Source: an uncultured bacterium
GTDB taxonomy: Bacteria > Zixibacteria > MSB-5A5 > JAABVY01 > JAHJOQ01
DNA length: 64,000 bases
NCBI GenBank assembly: GCA_965369655.1
Contig: CBDUQR010000003.1
Coordinates: 32,354-96,353, forward strand
Reading direction: 5' to 3'
The position numbers and the translations under genes are program-made. The notes beneath the pieces are model-generated. The model had not been told where the DNA came from. It saw only the letters and a list, made by a program, of their open reading frames with translations, and searched no databases. The stretch's first letter is position 1. Each line of letters starts with the position of its first letter. This document shows, in pieces, positions 3,072 through 36,919 of the stretch.

Positions 3072-4930
3072 TTTTCACCGAGCAGAAAAAGACAATCCGC
3101 GTAATGTTCACCCCGTTTCGGGATGGGCTGCAAAGCTCATTTGGCGGAAAAGTTCGCCTGCAGGATTTCCTGCCTGCGATGGTTTACGCCGCCAAAGAAA
3201 CGGGAATCCATCACTTCGAATTCGGAGGCGGCGCTCGCTACCAGGCTCCGTTTTTCTATCTCGGAGAGGATCCGTTCGAGACGATGCAGAAGATCAGGGA
3301 TGCGGTTGGCCCGGAGCCCGATCTGCAGATTCTCACTCGTTCAGTCTCAGGTGTAACCCTTACGACCCAGTCAATCGAAGCACTGACTCTCCAGGCCCAG
3401 CTGATGAAAAAGTATGGCACGACCTGGGATCGCAATTTCGATTACATGAACGATACCGACAACCTGATCAACACCGGCAGGCCGATAGTCGATTCCGGCA
3501 TGCACCACCAGGCCTGCATCGCCATGATGGGTCTGCCGTTCCATTCAGACAAAGTCCATACTGCAGAATTTTATGTGAACATCGCGAAGAAGCTTCTCGA
3601 AAGCGATATTCAGATCGACAGTATCTGCATGAAAGATGCGAGTGGTACGACCGATCCCAAAACATGCTATGACACCGCGGTCGGCCTGAGAAAGATCATG
3701 CCTCCCGAAATGCCGCTCTGGATGCACACTCACGACACTGCCAGCATGGCGGTCGCCTGCTATATGGCGGGCATCGCGGGCGGCGTCGATGGAATCGATC
3801 TGTCGGTGAGACCTCTCGCAAGCGGCACTGTCCAGCCGGATGTCCGGTCAATGGCGCACGCTCTCAAGGGTACCGGCTACGATCTCGATCTCGATCCCGA
3901 CAAGATGCAGACGATCGAAGATATGCTCAACGAGTCGATGAAAGATTACGCATTCAACCCGGCCACGACCACTCCCGATGCGCGTGTAGTTGGATTCCCG
4001 ATGCCGGGCGGCGCGATCGGTCCAAATGTACACATGATGGTGAAATCGGGCGTGATACATAAGTACGGCGATGTGCTCGCTGAGTTCCCCGTTGTCGTGG
4101 AGGCCGGAGGCGCATGGACATCGGTGACGCCCGGAAGCCAGCAGTACTGGCTGCAGGCGTTCAACAATGTTCTCTACGGGCGCTGGGATAAAATTGAAGC
4201 GGGCTATGGCCGAGCGGTGCTCGGCTATTTCGGCAAGACGCCATTGCCGCCTGATCCTGAAGTCGTTAAAATGGCGTCGAAACAGCTTGGACTCGAGCCG
4301 TTCGACGGTGATCCGCTCGAAGCAGCCCCCAGGAATATCGAACCAGCGAAGAAGGCGCTCGAAGAGCGCGGATTGTCCACTGACGAGAAGAATATCTTCC
4401 TGGTGGTCAGCGCGATGGTGCCCGGAAAGAAAATGGAAACCAACGAAGGCATCAGACTCCTGACAGGCAAACCGAAAATCGACGTACCCCTGAAGAAGAA
4501 AGAAGAACCAAAACCGGCTTCGGTAGCTGCAGCGGCAGTGAATCCCGGACAGGCGGCCGCAATCACAGGACCTGTCACATCACGATGCGTTGTCGATGAA
4601 GGCGGCTCGATCAGAACATTCACAGTTACAATTGAACCGACTGGCGCAGTCGCTTCGGCAACCGCTACGCAGACAATCGCCGCCGCCCCCGCTGCTCCGC
4701 CTGTTTCCGGCGGCACAAAAGTCATGTCGAGTTTTGCCGGTTTGGTTGAGGTTGTCGATATCCTCGTCAAAGTCGGAGATACTGTCAGCAAAGGCCATGT
4801 CATCGCGGCAGTCGAGGCGATGAAAGCGAAGCATGATATCAAGTCGCCATGTGACGGCAAGGTGACATCTATTGATGTCGCGATAGGCGACGAGATTGAT
4901 TCAACCAAACCGATCATGACCATCGCTTAG
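3068..4930 (+). CDS. oadA: Oxaloacetate decarboxylase alpha / carboxyltransferase with biotinyl domain
   Basis: RDGLQS, KDASG, HTHDT, VTPGSQ motifs; Ala/Pro linker; EAMK biotin site. Confidence 0.9.
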   Translation: MIFTEQKKTIRVMFTPFRDGLQSSFGGKVRLQDFLPAMVYAAKETGIHHFEFGGGARYQAPFFYLGEDPFETMQKIRDAVGPEPDLQILTRSVSGVTLTTQSIEALTLQAQLMKKYGTTWDRNFDYMNDTDNLINTGRPIVDSGMHHQACIAMMGLPFHSDKVHTAEFYVNIAKKLLESDIQIDSICMKDASGTTDPKTCYDTAVGLRKIMPPEMPLWMHTHDTASMAVACYMAGIAGGVDGIDLSVRPLASGTVQPDVRSMAHALKGTGYDLDLDPDKMQTIEDMLNESMKDYAFNPATTTPDARVVGFPMPGGAIGPNVHMMVKSGVIHKYGDVLAEFPVVVEAGGAWTSVTPGSQQYWLQAFNNVLYGRWDKIEAGYGRAVLGYFGKTPLPPDPEVVKMASKQLGLEPFDGDPLEAAPRNIEPAKKALEERGLSTDEKNIFLVVSAMVPGKKMETNEGIRLLTGKPKIDVPLKKKEEPKPASVAAAAVNPGQAAAITGPVTSRCVVDEGGSIRTFTVTIEPTGAVASATATQTIAAAPAAPPVSGGTKVMSSFAGLVEVVDILVKVGDTVSKGHVIAAVEAMKAKHDIKSPCDGKVTSIDVAIGDEIDSTKPIMTIA

Positions 4931-4942
4931 GCGCTGCAGCAC

Positions 4943-6070
4943 ATGGATACAATAATAGAGCTACTCAGGCAGTCCGGCTTTTCCAACATATCGTTTGGGA
5001 ATCTGGCGATGTTTGCCATTGCCGGAACTCTCATCTATCTTGCGATAGCGAAGAATTATGAGCCAATGCTTCTGATACCGATCGGATTCGGCGCGATGCT
5101 CGCGAACCTCCCTATGGCCGACATGGGATCTTACGGCCAGGGCCTGATGGGGCTGATATATAAGACGGGAATCAAGACTGAGCTTCTCCCGCCGATTGTA
5201 TTCCTCGGTATAGGAGCCCTGATCGATTTCCGTCCGCTCCTTGGGCGTCCTCTCACGTTCCTGCTTGGCGCAGCAGCTCAACTCGGTATTTTTATCGCGG
5301 CGATAGGAGCCGCATGGCTGCTCGGATTCTCATTGAAGGAAGCAGCCAGTATCGGCATTATTGGAGGCGCCGACGGTCCGACCTCGATATTCCTTGCGTC
5401 GCAACTCGCACCGCACCTTCTCGGACCGATAGCGGTTGCAGCATACAGTTATATGTCACTCGTACCGATTATCCAGCCGCCGATAATGCGTATGCTGACA
5501 TCTAAGAAAGAACGTGCGATAGACATGCCACAGGCCAGGCCTGTCTCAAGGACGGCGGTAATCCTGTTTCCGATCGTTACCGGTATTGTGGCTTGTCTCG
5601 GTATTCCGTCGAGTGCTCCACTCATCGGGATGCTTATGTTTGGCAACCTACTGCGCGAATGCGGTGTGACAGAGCGCCTGCGCAAAACTGCGGGCGGCTC
5701 ATTGATAGATATCGTTACGTTATTTCTCTGTCTTGTGGTCGGAGCCACAATGGATGCCGTGCATTTCCTGAACCTCGCAACAATCAAGATACTCCTGCTC
5801 GGAGCAGTTGCATTCTCGTTCAGCACTGCGGGCGGAATTATGCTCGCGAAAATCCTGAACATCTTTCTCGCAAAAGGAAAAAAGATCAATCCTTGCATCG
5901 GCGCGGCGGGTGTGTCAGCTGTACCGATGGCGGCGCGCGTCGTACAGAGATTCGTTTCGGATGAGACTGACGGCAGAGTCAATCCGCTGATGCCTGCTAT
6001 GGGACCGAATGTCGCAGGCGTAATCGGATCGGCCGTAGCGGCGGGAGTATTCCTGACGCTGCTGTCATAG
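4943..6070 (+). CDS. oadB: Na+-transporting decarboxylase beta subunit
   Basis: IGIIGGADGPT, AAYSYMSLVPIIQPP, AGVSAVPMAAR, AMGPNVAGVIGSA. Confidence 0.95.
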   Translation: MDTIIELLRQSGFSNISFGNLAMFAIAGTLIYLAIAKNYEPMLLIPIGFGAMLANLPMADMGSYGQGLMGLIYKTGIKTELLPPIVFLGIGALIDFRPLLGRPLTFLLGAAAQLGIFIAAIGAAWLLGFSLKEAASIGIIGGADGPTSIFLASQLAPHLLGPIAVAAYSYMSLVPIIQPPIMRMLTSKKERAIDMPQARPVSRTAVILFPIVTGIVACLGIPSSAPLIGMLMFGNLLRECGVTERLRKTAGGSLIDIVTLFLCLVVGATMDAVHFLNLATIKILLLGAVAFSFSTAGGIMLAKILNIFLAKGKKINPCIGAAGVSAVPMAARVVQRFVSDETDGRVNPLMPAMGPNVAGVIGSAVAAGVFLTLLS

Positions 6071-29512: not shown

Positions 29513-30661
29513 TTAAGCTTCCTCGAGTACTTCGAAAATGTCCGGCGCCACGTATTTCTTGGGACGTACACTCTTTTGGGATTCTTGGAGAATGCCAACC
29601 TCAACAAGCTTGGAGACCGCTGTCTTGACAGTTGGATAACTAACATTCCAATGGTGGCTAAGCTCTGATATCGACACTACAGGATTAAGAAAAAGTTCTT
29701 CCATGGCTCGTATAGTATTTTTCGGCAACCTGCTTCCCTCGAGCTTTTCTAAATAGTCTAAACGTAACTTAATCAACTTGTCCGACAAGTCGGTGGCATG
29801 ATCTGCTTGAGTAATGATTGCCCTGAGAAAAAACTCAATCCACTCTCGCCATCGGCCCTCCCTGCTGACCGAAAGGAGATGGCTGTAATACTCATTGCGA
29901 TGCCTTTCAAAAAACGCACTCAAATAAAGCAATGGCTGTGAAAGGTATCCCCGTGAGCATAGGAATAATGCAATCAACAGTCGTCCAATACGTCCATTCC
30001 CATCAATAAAAGGATGAATCGCTTCGAATTGATAATGCATGAGAGCGCATTTGATCAACGGGGATTCATCTGATACGTCGTTCATGTACTTCTCCCAGTC
30101 TGAGATAGCATCTTTCATCTCAGCAACTGGTGGAGGAACATACGTGGCATCTTTCAGCAAACAGCCGGGTGATCCAATCCAGTTCTGTGTGGTTCGGAAT
30201 TCGCCGGGATATACTTCACAGCCCCGCACGCCTTGAGTCAGGATTTCGTGTATGTCCCGAATCAAGCGACCACATATTGGGAGCTCTTTGATTCCTTCCA
30301 ACCCTGCTTCCATTGCCCGAATGTAGTTCCTGACCTCCTTCACATCACTGTTTACTCCAGAGACTCGAGAAGTTGCCTCGTCGAAGTATACATCGCTCAG
30401 CGTAGCCTCAGTACCTTCAATGCGCGAACTGAGCACCGCTTCGATTCTTAAGAATGGTCCTATGAGAAGATATGGGTTGGGTAAATGCTTTCCCACACCT
30501 GAGAGCAATCCTAACTTACGATCCGCCTCAGAGAGAAGAGCGACAAGATCGCTGTCATAGTCAAGCTTGGGAGGCAGGGGATTAGGAATGAATGCCCAAT
30601 ATTTAGCAGGTGTTTTTACAACTCTACCTGCTCCGCTTGCTTTGAAATCCTCAGGGTTCAT
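29513..30661 (-). CDS. Fic-family AMPylase (class II) with C-terminal winged-HTH
   Basis: Catalytic HPFIDGNGRIGR; N-terminal inhibitory SSRIEG; C-terminal SISELSHHWNVSYPTVKTAVSKLVEVGIL. Confidence 0.92.
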   Translation of the reverse strand: MNPEDFKASGAGRVVKTPAKYWAFIPNPLPPKLDYDSDLVALLSEADRKLGLLSGVGKHLPNPYLLIGPFLRIEAVLSSRIEGTEATLSDVYFDEATSRVSGVNSDVKEVRNYIRAMEAGLEGIKELPICGRLIRDIHEILTQGVRGCEVYPGEFRTTQNWIGSPGCLLKDATYVPPPVAEMKDAISDWEKYMNDVSDESPLIKCALMHYQFEAIHPFIDGNGRIGRLLIALFLCSRGYLSQPLLYLSAFFERHRNEYYSHLLSVSREGRWREWIEFFLRAIITQADHATDLSDKLIKLRLDYLEKLEGSRLPKNTIRAMEELFLNPVVSISELSHHWNVSYPTVKTAVSKLVEVGILQESQKSVRPKKYVAPDIFEVLEEA

Positions 30662-30747
30662 CGGTAATTCCCCTCATTCAGATCTGACTCTGTTTCAAGA
30701 GCACTCTCAGACCTGATTCTATTCAGCAAAATTTGAAATGCTGCCAC

Positions 30748-30999
30748 CTTTAATCCATATTAATTGGATTAAAGAAAAATACTATTACCTTTAATACAAA
30801 CTAATTGGATTAAAGAAAAATGTCAAAACCTTTAATATGAATTGGTTGAATTAAAGAAAAACGCCGGAATCTTTAATTCAAATCAAACCAATTAAAGAAA
30901 AAAATGTAACCTTTTATTCAAGAAAATTAAATTAAAGAAAAGTGCTAAAACCTTTAATTCAAATCAACTGAATTAAAGGGAACTGCAATAACCTTTAAT
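30748..30999. repeat. Phased array of six 27-bp palindromic units CTTTAAT-N13-ATTAAAG plus one half-unit, 41-bp period
   Basis: Units start at 30748, 30789, 30830, 30871, 30911, 30952 and 30993 (half); A-rich 13-14 bp linkers. Confidence 0.92.
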
Positions 31000-31165
31000 T
31001 GAGAAATAACCTGTTGTATTACTCAATAGACTGCCTAATATCATATATAACAGACAATTACGACATCATCACTTGCATGCAGATTGCCAGGAATCACCCG
31101 CCAGCAACTGCAAATCCATAACCAACTGCACCACAATATGATATGGCCAGATTGTTCGCCGCTCT

Positions 31166-32983
31166 TTACTTTCCCGCTAACTCCACAAACGGCTCGACAT
31201 CCGCCAGCATGCGGTCGACTGCTGCTGTCCAGAAATCATCTTTGGTCAGGTCGACTCCGAGATGTTTCTGTGCAAGGTCTTCGGTCGTCATCGAACCGGT
31301 ATCATGCAACAGCGCGTGGTACTTCTCGAAGAACCCTTTGCCTTCAGTCTTTGCCCGATCATAGACTCCGCCCGCAAACAGAAATCCGAACGTATACGGG
31401 AAGTTGTAGAACGGCAGTCCGGTCAGGAAGAAATGCAGCTTCGATGCCCAGAAGAGTGGATGATATCCACTTTCGTCGAGCGTATTTCCAAACGCTTTCT
31501 TCTGCGCATCGACCATGATCTCATCGAGCCGTTTTCGAGACACAATGCCATTCTTCCGCTCTGAATAGAAAGCCTTATCGAAGATAAACCTCGCCTGCAG
31601 ATTGCAGAACATCACATGAGTCCGCTGCAGCTTCTGATCGAGCAGCATCAATTTCTGATCCGGATCGCCCGCTTCATTGAATGCCGCGTCGGTCACAAGA
31701 AGCTCATTGAAAATCGACGCTGTCTCTGCGAGATTCGCCGGATACTCCGCGGCGAAATACGGAACATCTCTCAGCACCCAGGTGTGCCAGGCATGCCCAA
31801 GCTCATGCGCCAGGGTCATCATGTCGCCGAAGGTATCGAGATATGTCATGAATATGCGGCTCTCTTTGACCGGACCAAATCCGGTACAGAATCCGCCACC
31901 AGCTTTGCCGGATCGATTCTCGGCTTCAATCCATCTCTTGTCGAACGCCATCTGCGAGAATTCCGCCATTTCGTCGGAGAATCCCCCAAGATGTTTGACG
32001 ATGAACTTCTTCGCTTCATCCCAACTCATCTTCTGGTCTGATTCTCCGACCGGCGCCGATTGATCGAACCAACTGAATTTGTCGATTCCAAGCAGCTTTT
32101 TTTTCGTCTCGATGTATCGCTCTAAGCGAGGCACACCCGCAGCAACGGCATTCCACATGGCATCGATAGTCTCCTCTTTCAGCCGCCCCATGACGAGTGG
32201 TTCATACAGGATCGAATCCCAGTTTCGATTGCTGTAGAGCGACAACCTGAAACCTGCGAGAGAGTTAAGAGTCATAGCTGCGTATTCGGCGCGCGTTTCC
32301 CATGCCGCTTCGAGTTTCTCGAACGCCTGCTTCCTGATCGATCTGTCGGAACTGTCCATCTTGCTGGCGAGCTGCCCGAGCGAGATCTCGGTTGTTTTTC
32401 CATCCTCGTCGAAATCGACACGAAGATCCCCCGCCATCTTATCGTAAAGCCGGTTCCAGGCATGGTAACCGCTCACGGCTAATTCGTTCGCAAACGCCTC
32501 GAATTCCTCGGACATCTTCTTACGAGCGTTTGTGCGGAGTTCATCCAGCGAAAAACGAATCCCGGACAGCTCGGGATCATCGAGAAGCGCCGCCCATGCC
32601 GCATCATCCTGTCTGCGAGCATACGATTCGATCCGTGTCTGGAGTTTGTACCAGTCAGATATGAGAACATCGATCTCCTGTTTGATCTGCAATGCCGGCA
32701 TGTCATCGACATTCTGCGCAGTGAGACATTCCGCGAATGCAGCCACGAGTTCGATATCCGTCACAAGCCGCTGATATTCCAGAATTGCCGACCTGCACTT
32801 ATCGCTTTTGGAATGCTCCAGTTTATCGGGTAGCTGCGCAAACTGTTCAGCGGCTGCCGCGAGATCCTTTTTCAGTTTCTCACGGTAGTCAGAGAATTCT
32901 TTCGAGCCGGAACCTCCCGGAAAAATCGAATCGAGATTCCACCGCATAACGAGAGCGACATTTTCAGAAGCATCAGAACTCAT
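31166..32983 (-). CDS. M3 family oligoendopeptidase (PepF-like)
   Basis: W.LDSIF N-terminus, GGFCT, TLAHELGHAWH (HExxH), LAETAS.F.E, FYNFPYTFG. Confidence 0.93.
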   Translation of the reverse strand: MSSDASENVALVMRWNLDSIFPGGSGSKEFSDYREKLKKDLAAAAEQFAQLPDKLEHSKSDKCRSAILEYQRLVTDIELVAAFAECLTAQNVDDMPALQIKQEIDVLISDWYKLQTRIESYARRQDDAAWAALLDDPELSGIRFSLDELRTNARKKMSEEFEAFANELAVSGYHAWNRLYDKMAGDLRVDFDEDGKTTEISLGQLASKMDSSDRSIRKQAFEKLEAAWETRAEYAAMTLNSLAGFRLSLYSNRNWDSILYEPLVMGRLKEETIDAMWNAVAAGVPRLERYIETKKKLLGIDKFSWFDQSAPVGESDQKMSWDEAKKFIVKHLGGFSDEMAEFSQMAFDKRWIEAENRSGKAGGGFCTGFGPVKESRIFMTYLDTFGDMMTLAHELGHAWHTWVLRDVPYFAAEYPANLAETASIFNELLVTDAAFNEAGDPDQKLMLLDQKLQRTHVMFCNLQARFIFDKAFYSERKNGIVSRKRLDEIMVDAQKKAFGNTLDESGYHPLFWASKLHFFLTGLPFYNFPYTFGFLFAGGVYDRAKTEGKGFFEKYHALLHDTGSMTTEDLAQKHLGVDLTKDDFWTAAVDRMLADVEPFVELAGK

Positions 32984-33207
32984 GGCTTTCTCCCTGGCAA
33001 TTTTACCACAGCGGCCGTTCCGCTGGACATAGAGGTCAAATAAAACAACTATTTTTCAAGAGTATATAACATACGGATGGCGGTTTTTCAAGCCGTTACT
33101 GCTGTCAGCGGACTTGATGTGGTTGTTTTATATGTCCTGGTCTCCAGCAGATTGGCGTTCCGCAGCAGGCCAAGCCTGTCAGCGACCGAAAACCCGACTT
33201 CCAGATT

Positions 33208-33256
33208 GGGGCAGATCCTTCGAAGCTCAGGACTTGCGAGGACGTCTGCCGCCCAC
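33208..33256. repeat. GTGGGCGGCAGACG-type REP without MITE (empty site), with CCTTCG..GCTCAGG insert
   Basis: Reverse complement gtgggcggcagacgTCCTcg..cctgagcttcgaagg.tctgcccc; single TCCT. Confidence 0.7.
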
Positions 33257-33577
33257 TCATAGCACTCATCCGGGCAACTACAGAGCAATGGATCAAGGTC
33301 ATTCTTTGCACAGGTTGGCGTGACGTACTAAGCGACTCTTGTCTCATTCCGATACACTCAGCAAGGTCCAGACATCGTTGCACGGTATGATCGGTCCTGG
33401 ACCAGCACAGCAGGGATTGCTTACGCGTTCGATCAGGATCGAACAAGAGTCGACTCGGAAGAGAAATTCTCCGCACTCGACACAGAATACCTCAACAAGC
33501 TGAATCTGACCGACAAACTCAAACACCTGCAACGCATGTCCGCAGCCGGTGTGGCATAAGCTATATTCTCACGAATA

Positions 33578-34456
33578 TCAGAGTGACATGAGTATCAGTA
33601 CAGTCGCAAACCAGAGCAGCACATTGACGAGCAGCGGCAGATCGGTGAGCAGGACTCGCGACGGCGAGCCTCCTTTTTCCTTCTTGTGGATCAGATAGAG
33701 ATACCTGAATATCCCATACACCACGAACGGCACGGATATTTCGAGATGCTCAACCCCGAGTTTCTGTTCGACTTCAGGTGAAAGAGTGTAAAATGTATAG
33801 GCGATGACTACGGAAGCCGTGACAACAGAAGTCATCTGATCGAGGAAATAGACCGAATAATGTTCCAGAATTGCCCTGTGTTCACTTGCCGCCTCCTTGA
33901 GTGATTCCAGCTCGTGCCGCCTCTTTCCGAAGGCGAGAAACAACGCCAGAAGAAACGTACAAACAACCAGCCATGAGGATATCGGCACGGAGATAGCAAT
34001 ACCTCCGGCGATCGCCCTCAGGACAAATCCCCCCGCAATCGTCATCACATCGACTATAACAATATGCTTCAGGACAATCGAATAAAGGATATTCAGCACA
34101 GCATAACAAACAAGCAACACCAGTGTTTGCGGATTCAGGAAAATCCAGGCGGTCAACATTGCGCCTGCCATGAAAAGAGCCGACAGAACGATGGCAGTAC
34201 TGCGAGGGACAACGCCGGATGCAATCGGACGATTCGACTTTGTCGGATGAACCCGGTCTCTTTCATAATCGAGAACATCATTGAACAGATAGACAGAGGA
34301 CGAGGCGAGACAGAATAATCCGAACAGGATGATCGATGATTCGATCAGTTGAAGATCAGTGAAGCTCTTTGAGAAAACCAGCGCTCCAAAGACGACCAGG
34401 TTCTTGGTCCACTGTTCGGGTCTGAGGCTCCGGATCAACCCTGTCGCAAAGTTCAT
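33578..34456 (-). CDS. UbiA-family prenyltransferase, decaprenyl-phosphate phosphoribosyltransferase type
   Basis: RP.QW.KN, Y.FND..D...DR.HPTK..RPIASG, LK.I...DV, KRR.E. Confidence 0.88.
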   Translation of the reverse strand: MNFATGLIRSLRPEQWTKNLVVFGALVFSKSFTDLQLIESSIILFGLFCLASSSVYLFNDVLDYERDRVHPTKSNRPIASGVVPRSTAIVLSALFMAGAMLTAWIFLNPQTLVLLVCYAVLNILYSIVLKHIVIVDVMTIAGGFVLRAIAGGIAISVPISSWLVVCTFLLALFLAFGKRRHELESLKEAASEHRAILEHYSVYFLDQMTSVVTASVVIAYTFYTLSPEVEQKLGVEHLEISVPFVVYGIFRYLYLIHKKEKGGSPSRVLLTDLPLLVNVLLWFATVLILMSL

Positions 34457-34480
34457 GGATACAAGATACCGACTGAGTGT

Positions 34481-35122
34481 TTAGAACGGCAAGCTGTTTT
34501 CTATCGACTCGTGAATTGATGCCAGGAAGTCCTGGAGTATCGTATCCGCAGCAGCTTCATCCGGGCCGCGCACATTGACCACAAGTCGGATCAGAGCCGC
34601 ATCTGTCGGCCTGAGTCGCACCGAGTTGAGAACAAGGTCGAACTTGAGGGCATACTCATTGGTCAGAACACCTGATCTGGTCCTGAACCAGTAATAGACT
34701 ACCTGTCGCATCTTCTTGTTGCCGATCACAACACGATTGACCGAGAACTCCTGTCCGTTTATCTCAATATCGTGCGGACTCGATTCGAGAATACCCCAGC
34801 CGCCTCCGGGAAGGCAGTGTTTCGGCGAATGAATCTGCGAGCCATACTTCTGATCATCAAAGTAACCTATGAACAACGATGCTTCAGCTCCATCCGGTCT
34901 GCGATATCGCCTCGAGGTCGTACTGGTCGCCTTGAGAACCTCGAGAGTGAAATCGGACAGCGCATACTCGGTACCGTCCCAGCCGTCGATCTCGAGTGGA
35001 ATCACAGAGAAGTCCGACGGTCTCTCCGGATGCACGCGAACATAACGGAGCATGACAGTCAGCGCTCCTGCAACCAGAAGCAATCCGATTACTATGTAGT
35101 ATCTATAGGCAGACTTTTCCAT
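34481..35122 (-). CDS. epsI: Exosortase-associated protein EpsI
   Basis: P....GW.G, HSPKHCLPGGGW, YYWF, DAALIR; follows exosortase. Confidence 0.88.
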   Translation of the reverse strand: MEKSAYRYYIVIGLLLVAGALTVMLRYVRVHPERPSDFSVIPLEIDGWDGTEYALSDFTLEVLKATSTTSRRYRRPDGAEASLFIGYFDDQKYGSQIHSPKHCLPGGGWGILESSPHDIEINGQEFSVNRVVIGNKKMRQVVYYWFRTRSGVLTNEYALKFDLVLNSVRLRPTDAALIRLVVNVRGPDEAAADTILQDFLASIHESIENSLPF

Positions 35123-35958
35123 CTCAGAATAGAACTCACTATCAAAAGCATTATCATCGAGAACAGAAACACCAGCATTCCGGCCATCTCGTGCAGCGTT
35201 CCCTCAACGAATTTCTCACTGATCGCGTATGTCCCGACGGTTGTGAAGATTATCCTTACGACATTCCCGAGGATTGCAATCGGAATCGTAGACAGAAACA
35301 GAACCACCGCTTTCGTTCGGTTGTCCTGAGTGAAATAGGCCATCAGCGCACCCAGCGCAAGAAGCGACATTATCGATCTGAGGCCGCTGCAAGCCTCCGC
35401 GACCTCAAGCGCCTGCCCCCCCGGCAGATACAGCACATTTCCGAGCCTCACAAGCGGCAGACCGATCAGGCTCACAGCAGACGATGCAATCTGTGATGCG
35501 AAAAGCTGCATCGGGAAAGTCAGGGAATAGTAAATAACATACGGTATCGGAATCATAAACAGCAAAAATGCAAATGCAAACCAGATTCGCTTGAAAACTC
35601 GAGTGCCGAAAAAGCAGAGCGCAAGTGATGAGAGCAACAGCACAAAGGAAAACCGTACGCTGAAGTATTCGGCTCCCGCCGTACCGATTATGAATATCAG
35701 CAGCGCTGCCAATATCCCTGCAAATCCGACATTGCTCCACTTGACGGGAAGTCTCGATATCTCCGCTCTCTGTCGCCAGATGAACCAGATCGACACCGGG
35801 ATTATCAGGAAGCCGTGTGAATAGTTGGAATCTTCGTACCAATCCAGCACGAGGTCTTTCAGAACGGGCAGATATATCAGAAACACAAGTCCCAGTATCA
35901 GGTAGAGCCTGCGGTCGATTCCTGGCTGATTCTCTGCGATTGCAGCAGATTGGGACAT
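35092..35958 (-). CDS. Exosortase (EpsH family)
   Basis: YSHGFLI, VAEACSGLRS (Cys), NVVRI (Arg), LHE..G (His). Confidence 0.93.
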   Translation of the reverse strand: MSQSAAIAENQPGIDRRLYLILGLVFLIYLPVLKDLVLDWYEDSNYSHGFLIIPVSIWFIWRQRAEISRLPVKWSNVGFAGILAALLIFIIGTAGAEYFSVRFSFVLLLSSLALCFFGTRVFKRIWFAFAFLLFMIPIPYVIYYSLTFPMQLFASQIASSAVSLIGLPLVRLGNVLYLPGGQALEVAEACSGLRSIMSLLALGALMAYFTQDNRTKAVVLFLSTIPIAILGNVVRIIFTTVGTYAISEKFVEGTLHEMAGMLVFLFSMIMLLIVSSILRWKSLPIDTT

Positions 35959-35965
35959 AGTGGTA

Positions 35966-36919
35966 TTAGCTGGCCGGCGCCTTTTCAGGAATCCTGCTCC
36001 TGAAATATTCGATCGTGCGCCTTAATCCTTCCCTGAAATCGACAGTGATCTCGAACCCGAGTTCCTTCTCCGCCAGAGATATGTCTGATCCCGAGTGCCT
36101 GATATCGCCCTGTTTCTCCGGTTTGAACACCGGTTCCACATCAACACCGAGCAGTTCTTTGAGCACTTCGAGCAGATCGAACAGGGTGAACCGAACTCCA
36201 CCCGCGATATTGTAAACTTTGCCGGCCACATCCGGCGCTTCAGAGGCAAGAAGATTCGCGGAAACCACATTGTCAACATAAACGAAGTCTCTCGACTGCA
36301 GGCCATCACCGAAAATAACAGGCTGTTTGGATGTCAGAAGAGCATTCATGAACTTCGGGATCACAGCCGCATAATCGCTGGCCGGATTCTGGTTCGGACC
36401 GAATACGTTGAAGTACCGCAGTACGACTGTCTCAAGGCCGTACAATTCATAGTATATTCGGCAATAATCCTCGCCGACGAGCTTGGCTGCCGCATACGGA
36501 GATAATGTCTTCAATTCAGACTGTTCCGTCTTGGGCAGATCGGCAAGATCACCATAGACCGCCGATGAGGACGCGAACACGAATCGCTTGATTCCCGCAA
36601 CCCGTGCTGCTTCCAATAGATTTATAGTACCGGATATATTGACTTCGGATGACCCGACCGGATCTGCGACCGAGAGCTCGACGGAAGGAATGGCCGCCTG
36701 ATGGAAAACGATGTCGACCCCCGACATTGACCGGGCGACTGCGTCAGAATCCCTGATGTCTCCCTTAATCAGCTCGATCTTACCTTTGATCCGCGAGATG
36801 TTCTCCATCCGCCCGGTGGAGAAATCGTCTAAGATTCGGACAGTCTCGTCACGATTTACAAGCTCGGCAACGATGTTCGAGCCTATGAACCCGGCTCCTC
36901 CGGTCACCAAGTATTTCAT
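35966..36919 (-). CDS. NAD-dependent nucleotide-sugar epimerase/dehydratase
   Basis: TGGAGFIGS, SSSAVYG, YAAAK, RYFNVFGP. Confidence 0.93.
   Translation of the reverse strand: MKYLVTGGAGFIGSNIVAELVNRDETVRILDDFSTGRMENISRIKGKIELIKGDIRDSDAVARSMSGVDIVFHQAAIPSVELSVADPVGSSEVNISGTINLLEAARVAGIKRFVFASSSAVYGDLADLPKTEQSELKTLSPYAAAKLVGEDYCRIYYELYGLETVVLRYFNVFGPNQNPASDYAAVIPKFMNALLTSKQPVIFGDGLQSRDFVYVDNVVSANLLASEAPDVAGKVYNIAGGVRFTLFDLLEVLKELLGVDVEPVFKPEKQGDIRHSGSDISLAEKELGFEITVDFREGLRRTIEYFRSRIPEKAPAS

What the first reader, a model, noticed from the sequence alone, without database searches (positions are those of the whole stretch)
30748..30999. Helically phased 41-bp palindrome array directly upstream of a Fic-wHTH AMPylase
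Seen: 13 heptamer half-sites alternating CTTTAAT and ATTAAAG about every 20-21 bp (two helical turns). They form six 27-bp units with variable 13-nt cores and 13-14-nt A-rich linkers, ending about 85 bp before the Fic start codon. One half-site has a single mismatch. Units 1 and 6 have 10-bp perfect stems. Heptamers and spacing are conserved while the interiors diverge, which argues for selection rather than simple slippage. Established: class II Fic proteins carry an (S/T)xxxE(G/N) inhibitory helix; this one also has a C-terminal wHTH. Inference: a Fic-plus-array module in which the enzyme polymerises cooperatively on its own centromere/iteron-like array, coupling autoregulation or activity to DNA binding. 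The alternative is that the array is transcribed into repeated hairpin RNAs, as in type III TA antitoxins or dual-repeat guide arrays. I know no description of either for Fic.
Basis: partly seen in the sequence, partly recalled or inferred. Interest (0 to 1): 0.8.

Follow-up and report, generated by a model that had tools for sequence, protein, structure and literature searches.

The report
Amplified self-operator array of a Fic enzyme
The repeat array is a six-fold tandem amplification of the DNA site at which SoFic-like Fic AMP-transferases most likely bind through their own DNA-binding tail to shut off their own gene; such self-repression is already published for related Fic enzymes, but an array this long is unusual.

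Summary
Window 30746-30999 is a 41-bp tandem array of 6.2 copies. It carries 12 exact CTTTAAT/ATTAAAG heptamers plus one with a single mismatch. It ends 86 nt upstream of a minus-strand class II Fic-wHTH gene (29513-30661).

The array is not an isolated oddity. The core ATTAAAG-N14-CTTTAAT-N13-ATTAAAG recurs in at least 120 stretches from species genomes of many phyla, archaea included. In 77 of those 120 it lies directly upstream of a Fic homologue.

Across 75 homologues from the window's phylum, operator words track the wHTH domain and not the Fic core. Proteins paired with this heptamer share a recognition helix of the form [ST]xP[TS][VA].

The usual operator has 3 half-sites (111 of 120) and never more than 4. 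This locus has 13. The heptamer columns are conserved (1 of 84 mismatches) while the other columns drift (40 of 161).

Self-repression through palindromes is published for CccR. Binding to its own promoter is published for SoFic, and DNA-stimulated activity for CbFic2. I therefore rate this a new variant of a known kind: an amplified self-operator.

Binding, repression and cooperativity are inferred, not shown.

The parts
29513..30661 (-). Class II Fic AMP-transferase gene (382 aa) with N-terminal Fic_N, Fic core and C-terminal wHTH; SoFic-like
   Evidence: ORF. Pfam Fic_N PF13784 scores 86.7 bits and Fic PF02661 76.1 bits, both above cut-off. TrmB-type wHTH PF01978 scores 20.9 bits, below its 25.6 cut-off. 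phmmer to SoFic 3eqx gives E 5.6e-40 over residues 26-375; to CccR 7xux, E 1.2e-15.
29981..30016 (-). Fic active-site motif HPFIDGNGRIGR (residues 216-227)
30413..30430 (-). Inhibitory-helix motif SSRIEG (residues 78-83), of the form (S/T)xxxE(G/N) and N-terminal to the Fic motif (class II)
   Evidence: The class definition is as quoted in PMC9755527.
29516..29698 (-). C-terminal wHTH region (residues 322-382); predicted recognition helix SYPTVKTAVSKL at residues 341-352 (window 29606-29641)
   Evidence: Alignments; coordinates.
30662..30747 (-). 86-nt spacer between the array and the start codon; holds GAGGGG a few bases before the ATG and no heptamer
30746..30999 (.). 41-bp-period array: 13 half-sites (12 exact, 1 with a mismatch) forming six CTTTAAT-N13-ATTAAAG palindromes plus a seventh lone half-site at 30993-30999
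30748..30774 (.). Unit 1, nearest the gene; 10-bp perfect arms
   Evidence: (I17)
30789..30815 (.). Unit 2
30830..30856 (.). Unit 3
30871..30897 (.). Unit 4; the linker that follows is one base shorter
30911..30937 (.). Unit 5; its left half-site is CTTTTAT (one mismatch)
30952..30978 (.). Unit 6; 10-bp perfect arms
30798..30826 (-). Best sigma-70-like promoter candidate on the Fic strand: TTGACA-17-TAGTTT (9 of 12). It lies inside the array, with units 2 and 1 over and downstream of it. Weak, a candidate only.
   Evidence: The stricter scan found nothing on this strand.
29447..31178 (.). About 1.73 kb (Fic gene plus array) with no DNA counterpart in the same-genus genome G001; synteny resumes on both sides
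   Evidence: blastn; Fic not found in G001

Best explanation
The array is a tandem amplification of the self-operator of a SoFic-like class II Fic AMP-transferase. [quoted passage not shown] Fic dimers sit on the palindromes and repress transcription of their own, potentially toxic, gene. The common form of this operator has three half-sites (ATTAAAG-N14-CTTTAAT-N13-ATTAAAG) just before the start codon. Here the 41-bp module has been multiplied to 13 half-sites, enough for about six dimers spaced roughly two helical turns apart. This would make repression tighter and probably cooperative. Shown: the sequence, its link to Fic genes across phyla, the covariation with the wHTH, and the constraint on the heptamers. 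Inferred: binding, repression, cooperativity, and which pair of half-sites one dimer holds.
For: 1. Linkage within the phylum.
- A three-half-site pattern hit 4 of 284 other genomes of the phylum, with 0 hits for the backwards control.
- In 3 of those 4 the hit lies directly upstream of a Fic_N-type gene.
- The unit CTTTAAT-N13-ATTAAAG (at most 1 mismatch) lies within 350 bp upstream of 14 of 80 Fic loci of the phylum, the own locus included.
- The backwards control scores 0 of 80, and no unit occurs in the remaining 229,943 bp of those loci.

2. Linkage worldwide.
- 82 of the 120 hold a Fic homologue. In 67 the pattern lies 0-400 bp upstream of the extrapolated start, and in 10 more it abuts the start (-6 to -1).
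- 114 of 130 pattern instances have exactly the 14-then-13 spacers of this array.

3. Covariation with the wHTH.
- Over 75 loci, shared upstream 8-mers correlate with wHTH identity once Fic-core identity is controlled: partial r 0.31, with 0 of 999 permutations as high.
- The reverse partial correlation is 0.07.
- In 50 complete Fic proteins found through the DNA pattern alone, the recognition helix reads [ST]xP[TS][VA]: P in 50 of 50, T or S in 47 of 50.
- Relatives with other helices (PFNSVK, TYMAAQ, AFTTAQ, TWPTAK) carry other palindromes.

4. Constraint on the heptamers. Heptamer columns show 1 mismatch in 84, other columns 40 in 161 (Fisher p 1.6e-7).

5. Published biochemistry on homologues. 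CccR footprint, EMSA, ITC and reporter; SoFic binding to its own promoter, which needs the dimer.
Against: - No binding or expression data exist for this protein.
- No convincing promoter was found. The best candidate scores 9 of 12, and the stricter scan found none on this strand.
- In the usual layout the operator abuts the start codon. Here 86 nt separate them, so the geometry of repression may differ.
- 16 of 120 worldwide hits have at least 1300 bp on both sides and no Fic gene. Two of these are coding-sequence coincidences in Flavobacteriaceae.
- The closest full-length relatives (52-58% identity) use a different half-site, so the match of helix to heptamer rests on a few residues.
- Related loci are not independent, so the statistics overstate the case.
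- A palindrome array also folds well as RNA (z -5.5).
Confidence: 0.8

Rival explanations
1. The array is the same operator, but its amplification has no function. Replication slippage multiplied the 41-bp module, only one or two proximal sites matter, and the rest are passengers.
For: Operator duplications occur sporadically elsewhere in the family. The highest count of any one 7-mer in 198 Fic upstream regions is 3-4 in 134 of them, with a tail of 7-10 in seven loci. L234 has a 72-bp unit repeated 2.5 times. No relative shares the 13-site form: 0 of 120 worldwide loci exceed 4 chained half-sites.
Against: The units have diverged (mean pairwise identity 0.53 in the interiors, 0.61 in the linkers), yet 83 of 84 heptamer positions and the 13/14-nt spacers are intact. 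Passengers should have decayed evenly. The array is identical in contigs of three samples of one study.
Confidence: 0.2
2. The array is a DNA scaffold that controls the enzyme rather than only the gene. Binding many dimers side by side drives dimerisation or oligomerisation and so switches AMPylation or deAMPylation, or sequesters the toxin.
For: In CbFic2, DNA binding induces dimerisation and stimulates (de)AMPylation (PMC10628234, passages). SoFic AMPylation needs the dimer (abstract and passages). Thirteen in-register sites exceed what simple repression needs.
Against: Nothing in the sequence tests this. One chromosomal array holds about 6 dimers, a small sink. CccR's regulatory and toxic activities were reported to be independent.
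Confidence: 0.12
3. The array acts as RNA. It is transcribed as a 5' leader, or by read-through from pepF, into repeated hairpins that act as an antitoxin-like or translational regulator, as in type III toxin-antitoxin systems.
For: It lies on the same strand as, and upstream of, a toxin-like gene. No terminator-like site lies between pepF and the Fic gene. The RNA fold is -64.3 kcal/mol against -40.3 for shuffles, z -5.5. In many relatives the third half-site supplies AAAGGA 5-11 nt before the start codon, so a hairpin could mask a ribosome-binding site.
Against: The same 7-mer, not merely pairing, is kept in 120 loci of many phyla and tracks the wHTH helix. Stems defined only by pairing would drift through compensatory changes. 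No Rfam family matched (best E 0.43, all below gathering scores). Fic is not an RNase of the ToxN type. Any palindrome array folds well as RNA.
Confidence: 0.06
4. The array is an iteron or centromere of a mobile element, for replication or partition, and only happens to lie next to Fic.
For: Helically phased repeats. The Fic-plus-array segment is strain-specific.
Against: The neighbours are housekeeping genes (pepF, pgsA, cinA). No tRNA lies in 25000-36000. The motif occurs once in the genome. Elsewhere it accompanies Fic genes.
Confidence: 0.02

Closest known systems
CccR of Yersinia pseudotuberculosis (PDB 7XUX; PMC9755527)
   Same: A class II Fic with a C-terminal HTH. The dimer binds an inverted repeat at its own promoter and represses its own gene. 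Shown by footprint, EMSA, ITC and reporter (passages read).
   Different: Its operator is AGATAATCAT-N26-ATGATAATCT, two half-sites only. The dimer is back-to-back and the protein is secreted by a T6SS. It is a distant relative of this protein (E 1.2e-15). Here there are 13 half-sites with 13/14-nt spacers.
SoFic (SO_4266) of Shewanella oneidensis (PDB 3EQX; bioRxiv 10.64898/2026.07.09.737422)
   Same: The closest solved homologue (E 5.6e-40 over residues 26-375). The dimer binds the 100 bp upstream of its own start codon.
   Different: The passages I read define no operator sequence, and the supplement with the DNA fragments is closed. No repeat array is reported. Its target, EF-Tu, is known; the target here is not.
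CbFic2 of Coxiella burnetii (PMC10628234)
   Same: A class II Fic-wHTH. DNA binding induces dimerisation and stimulates (de)AMPylation. It is a precedent for coupling activity to DNA.
   Different: Random DNA was used and no specific operator is known. It is a host-directed effector.
Canonical three-half-site Fic operator found here and in scan note e1-1538737
   Same: The same heptamer, the same 14/13 spacers and the same position upstream of a Fic gene, in 77 of 120 worldwide loci.
   Different: It has 3 half-sites (111 of 120) or 4 (7 of 120), carries the extended flanks CTT...AAG, and abuts the start codon. The window has 13 half-sites, lacks those flanks and sits 86 nt from the ATG.
Type III toxin-antitoxin systems such as ToxIN (recalled, not read here)
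   Same: A tandem array of ~36-41-nt repeats directly upstream of a toxin gene on the same strand.
   Different: Those repeats are near-identical RNAs processed by an RNase toxin, with a terminator before the toxin gene. Here only the heptamers are conserved, the toxin is a Fic enzyme, and no terminator was found.
Plasmid iterons and parC-type centromeres (recalled)
   Same: Phased repeats that can load many copies of one DNA-binding protein.
   Different: No replication or partition genes nearby, a chromosomal housekeeping context, and a motif tied to Fic genes.

Membership tests
Class II Fic AMP-transferase, SoFic-like (Fic_N + Fic + wHTH) | Fic active-site motif HxFx(D/E)GNGRxxR | tested here: met
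   HPFIDGNGRIGR at residues 216-227; Pfam Fic PF02661 scores 76.1 bits against a cut-off of 24
Class II Fic AMP-transferase, SoFic-like (Fic_N + Fic + wHTH) | Inhibitory motif (S/T)xxxE(G/N) on the same chain, N-terminal to the Fic motif | tested here: met
   SSRIEG at residues 78-83
Class II Fic AMP-transferase, SoFic-like (Fic_N + Fic + wHTH) | N-terminal Fic_N domain | tested here: met
   PF13784 scores 86.7 bits against a cut-off of 26.7, residues 41-122
Class II Fic AMP-transferase, SoFic-like (Fic_N + Fic + wHTH) | [quoted passage not shown] | tested here: met
   The sequence match to SoFic 3eqx runs to residue 375 of 382. The Pfam TrmB hit is below its cut-off (20.9 against 25.6 bits). 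No structure was predicted.
Self-repressing Fic-HTH regulator (CccR type) | Palindromic operator upstream of its own gene | tested here: met
   Six palindromes at 30748-30978. The same motif lies upstream of homologues.
Self-repressing Fic-HTH regulator (CccR type) | Operator sequence matched to the protein's own HTH | tested here: met
   Partial Mantel r 0.31, 0 of 999 permutations as high; recognition-helix motif shared by 50 of 50 proteins with this operator. This is comparative evidence only.
Self-repressing Fic-HTH regulator (CccR type) | Operator overlaps the -35/-10 boxes | tested here: inconclusive
   Only a 9-of-12 candidate promoter inside the array; none found by the stricter scan
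Self-repressing Fic-HTH regulator (CccR type) | The protein binds the operator and lowers its own transcription | not testable with these tools
   Needs EMSA or footprinting and a reporter assay
Type III toxin-antitoxin (ToxIN-like) | Toxin is a ToxN/AbiQ-type endoribonuclease | tested here: not met
   The gene is a Fic enzyme
Type III toxin-antitoxin (ToxIN-like) | Near-identical tandem repeats followed by a terminator before the toxin gene | tested here: not met
   Units match at 72%, with interiors at 0.53 pairwise identity. No terminator-like site in 30662-31165.
Known RNA families (Rfam 15) | Match at the gathering score | tested here: not met
   Best hit scores 25 bits against a gathering score of 55, E 0.43
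Plasmid iteron or centromere | Adjacent replication or partition genes | tested here: not met
   ORFs in 27000-35000 are pepF, Fic, pgsA, pgpA-like, cinA and a UbiA-like protein. Only four of them were run against Pfam.

The most novel reading that the evidence does not exclude
The 13-site array is a loading platform on which six or so Fic dimers assemble side by side into a nucleoprotein filament. Because dimerisation and DNA binding switch catalysis in relatives (SoFic, CbFic2), occupancy of the array would set both transcription of the gene and the balance of AMPylation against deAMPylation. The result would be a DNA-templated switch, or sponge, for a toxin that has no separate antitoxin.
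Probability: 0.12. Interest if true: 0.75.

Novelty: new variant of a known kind. Interest (0 to 1): 0.45.

Why it matters
Fic enzymes of this architecture are very widespread, and how the cell keeps them in check is still being worked out. This locus, read with its relatives, gives three things.

- A concrete operator consensus, conserved across phyla, for a large SoFic-like subfamily. For SoFic, the passages I read narrow binding only to 100 bp.
- A natural pairing of recognition helices with half-sites. This makes the DNA code of the Fic wHTH testable by helix and operator swaps.
- An extreme natural case, 13 sites against the usual 3. With it one can ask whether these enzymes bind DNA cooperatively, and whether DNA occupancy feeds back on catalysis.

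If the amplification only tightens repression, it is a modest variation on a known theme.

Tried and rejected
- **Tandem repeats upstream of homologues.** Tandem Repeats Finder on 730 bp upstream of 13 homologues from 40 relatives found no comparable array. This at first looked like a refutation. It was overturned once the heptamer itself was searched, because the usual operator is too short and irregular for that tool.
- **DNA similarity.** The intergenic region matched nothing in 40 relatives.
- **Rfam.** At permissive E-values only chance-level hits appeared.
- **CRISPR.** Rejected. The conserved parts are 7-mers at a 41-bp period, not 23-47-nt repeats with spacers. Cas genes were not searched for.
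- **Promoter and terminator scan.** One plus-strand promoter-like site, and one terminator-like site inside the Fic ORF. Neither is informative.
- **Expression.** No RNA holder was listed among the public runs, so expression could not be examined.
- **Earlier notes of this scan.** Nothing near this place.
- **Literature.** Searches were (Fic with winged helix, AMPylation, DNA binding; Fic domain with helix-turn-helix and autoregulation; Fic with AMPylation and wHTH; CccR with Fic). (Fic with CTTTAAT, matched anywhere) was uninformative, because 'fic' matches inside other words. One search used Fic protein, operator, tandem repeats and autorepress. I found no paper describing this operator consensus or an amplified array.
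- **Limits of the literature check.** The library lacks most subscription journals. Supplements are closed. The SoFic DNA fragments (its Table S2 and Fig. S2) and CccR's Supplementary Fig. 13 might bear on this. The SoFic preprint's reference list is not held, so I could not see which works its citations 7, 15 and 33 are.
- **Dimer geometry.** Not modelled. The tools return no coordinates, so the distance between wHTH domains could not be compared with the 20-21-bp spacing.

Full report
**What is there.** Window 30746-30999 is a tandem array with a 41-bp period, 6.2 copies, 72% matches and no indels. It holds 12 of the window's 15 exact CTTTAAT/ATTAAAG heptamers. Shuffles of the window give 4.9 on average, and none of 100 reaches 15. 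A thirteenth half-site, CTTTTAT at 30911, has one mismatch. The half-sites alternate in orientation every 20 or 21 bp. They form six palindromes, CTTTAAT-N13-ATTAAAG, joined by 13-14-nt linkers.

The gene next to the array is on the minus strand (29513-30661). The array is therefore upstream of it, 86 nt from the ATG. The array is real DNA. A contig from a second sample of the same study covers 30740-31119 without a difference, and contigs from a third sample cover 30654-30989. X1 may be the window's own source.

**The gene.** The 382-aa product has Fic_N and Fic domains above Pfam's cut-offs, and a sub-threshold TrmB-type wHTH hit at the C-terminus. It carries the active-site motif HPFIDGNGRIGR and the class II inhibitory motif SSRIEG. 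Its closest solved relative is SoFic of Shewanella oneidensis (3eqx, E 5.6e-40, residues 26-375). CccR (7xux) is a distant relative (E 1.2e-15; the identity of 7XUX was confirmed).

**Context.** The palindrome pattern occurs nowhere else in the 2.99-Mb genome. The same-genus genome G001 has no Fic match. Its DNA aligns with the window up to 29446 on one side and from 31179 on the other, on two different contigs. The Fic gene and its array thus form a strain-specific segment of about 1.73 kb between pgsA and pepF. No tRNA gene lies nearby.

**The decisive result: the heptamer travels with Fic genes.** My first test found no tandem repeat upstream of 13 homologues. I then searched for the heptamers themselves. 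The pattern CTTTAAT-N13-ATTAAAG-N13/14-CTTTAAT hit four other genomes among 284 of the phylum, with zero hits for the backwards control. In three of the four it lies directly before a Fic_N-type gene. The fourth, L026, has no Fic gene beside it.

I then collected 80 Fic loci from 79 of the 285 genomes. The 27-bp unit, with at most one mismatch, lies within 350 bp upstream of 14 of the 80. The backwards control scores 0 of 80. The unit occurs nowhere in the other 229,943 bp of those loci.

They come from Proteobacteria, Acidobacteria, Planctomycetes, Verrucomicrobia, Cyanobacteria, Melainabacteria, Dehalococcoidia, Saccharibacteria and Nitrosopumilus archaea, among others.
- 82 of the 120 hold a Fic homologue in the fetched stretch.
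- In 67 the pattern lies 0-400 bp upstream of the extrapolated start, and in 10 more it abuts the start.
- In 5 the pattern lies elsewhere relative to the gene.
- Of the 38 without a detected Fic, 22 have the pattern within 1300 bp of an end of the fetched stretch. The other 16 are testable orphans. Two of those are coding-sequence coincidences in Flavobacteriaceae, and most of the rest look like genuine solo operators.
- 114 of 130 pattern instances have spacers of exactly 14 then 13 nt, as in the window.

**Covariation with the DNA-binding domain.** Nearly every homologue has palindromes upstream, but the half-site differs by subfamily:

| Half-site | Recognition helix (where read) |
|---|---|
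| CTTATTGCAGGAT | PFNSVK |
| TTATTATACTTTT | TYMAAQ, THLSAQ |
| GAAAATAGC | AFTTAQ |
| TATCAAAATA | TWPTAK |
| AAAGTAAAATAT | not noted |
| GTTTACATCT | not noted |

Over 75 loci (five with truncated proteins were dropped), the sharing of upstream 8-mers correlates with wHTH identity after controlling for Fic-core identity. The partial r is 0.31, and 0 of 999 permutations reach it. The reverse partial correlation is 0.07. Among pairs below 60% core identity the figures are 0.21 and -0.04.

L007 illustrates this. Its core is 58% identical to the window's protein, but its wHTH and its operator both belong to another group.

I also took 50 complete Fic proteins recovered solely through the DNA pattern (52 were found; two outside 340-440 aa were dropped). 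In them the start of the recognition helix reads [ST]xP[TS][VA]: P in 50 of 50, T or S in 47, V or A in 42. The window's protein has SYPTV. Relatedness inflates all these statistics, but the direction is consistent.

**Why this locus is unusual.** In the 120 worldwide loci the longest chain of alternating exact heptamers is 3 in 111 loci, 4 in 7 and 2 in 2. The window has 13 half-sites.

A motif-blind count gives the same picture. Over 198 Fic upstream regions, the commonest non-trivial 7-mer occurs 3-4 times in 134 of them. The window leads with 12, ahead of a tail of amplified operators such as L071, L060, L061, L256 and L009. None of 67 metagenomic homologues with enough upstream DNA has a comparable array.

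The units are old. Interiors average 0.53 pairwise identity and linkers 0.61, yet the heptamers average 0.98. That is 1 mismatch in 84 heptamer positions against 40 in 161 elsewhere (Fisher p 1.6e-7). The heptamer columns were defined by the external consensus, so this test is not circular.

Compared with the canonical operator (cTT-ATTAAAG-gAaAa.Gc..TATc-CTTTAAT-AAcg......cTT-ATTAAAG-g), the window's units have lost the outer CTT/AAG flanks. They keep a T-run before CTTTAAT.

**What is already known.** CccR is a class II Fic with a C-terminal HTH. It protects AGATAATCAT-N26-ATGATAATCT at its own promoter and represses its own gene, and it needs the dimer to do so (PMC9755527, passages). Dimeric SoFic binds the 100 bp upstream of its own start codon (bioRxiv 10.64898/2026.07.09.737422, passages). 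DNA binding induces dimerisation of CbFic2 and stimulates its activity (PMC10628234, passages). I read that note only after reaching the same reading, and my own scans bear it out.

**Mechanism, with its open points.** The most likely reading is that Fic dimers bind the heptamers through their wHTH domains and repress the gene. The amplification then gives about six dimer sites, roughly two helical turns apart. Four points remain unresolved.
- It is unclear which pair of half-sites one dimer spans. Both the N13 and the N14 pairs are conserved. Relatives such as L006 and L009 keep CTTTAAT-N13-ATTAAAG with variable linkers.
- The promoter has not been located. The best candidate, TTGACA-17-TAGTTT at 30798-30826, lies inside the array and scores only 9 of 12.
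- Cooperative binding is untested.
- It is not known whether DNA occupancy affects catalysis.

The RNA-hairpin reading is less likely. The same 7-mer, not mere pairing, is conserved across phyla and tracks a protein helix. It is not excluded, though. The array folds well as RNA, and in many relatives the third half-site overlaps a likely ribosome-binding site.

**Verdict.** The finding is an amplified variant of a known kind of self-operator, with a useful comparative by-product: an operator consensus and a pairing of recognition helix with half-site for SoFic-like enzymes.

Noticed in passing
L120, L123, L127, L128, L132, L154, L178, L184, L201-L203, L208, L214, L219 (genome contigs) and L026: Solo copies of the canonical Fic operator with no Fic gene within 1300 bp on either side. 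They may be remnants left after loss of the gene, or sites that regulate something else.
   Followed up: partly
L184 5689-5736 with tRNA-Asp at 5744-5820; L188 3148-3195 with tRNA-Val at 3309-3383: Operators lie a few to about 110 bp from tRNA genes. This hints that Fic cassettes insert at tRNA loci in some genomes.
   Followed up: partly
L125, L145, L166 (Nitrosopumilus-type archaeal records): The same three-half-site operator lies before archaeal Fic genes. The first in-frame ATG lies inside the operator, so the third half-site would be coding (gap -22). This may mean a leaderless transcript or a later true start.
   Followed up: no
G000 contig C72 6461-7555 (L024): The genome has a second Fic-wHTH paralogue (43% identity). 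Its upstream palindromes use TTTAAAA/TTTTAAA, not CTTTAAT. This would keep the two regulators insulated from each other.
   Followed up: partly
window 31173: A 776-nt contig of run X3 matches 31173-31292 (2 differences) and then continues with unrelated sequence exactly at the edge of the strain-specific segment. It is probably a co-occurring relative without the Fic cassette.
   Followed up: no
L071 upstream region; L234 137-316 of its upstream stretch; L058, L060, L009: Other Fic subfamilies also show duplicated operators. L071 has a repeated GTTTACATCT...AGATGTAAAC block, L234 has a 72-bp unit repeated 2.5 times, and L058 and L060 have five or more CTTATTAAA-type sites. Operator amplification recurs in this family.
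   Followed up: partly
window 30993-31030: The distal end of the array runs into a different palindrome, ATTGAG-N18-CTCAAT, which overlaps the thirteenth half-site. Its meaning is unknown.
   Followed up: no
upstream regions of 79 phylum Fic loci: The hexamer CTTATT/AATAAG is present upstream of 56 of 79 homologues, against 6 of 79 inside the genes. It forms the outer flank of half-sites whose inner parts differ. It may be the part of the site read by a conserved element of the wHTH.
   Followed up: partly
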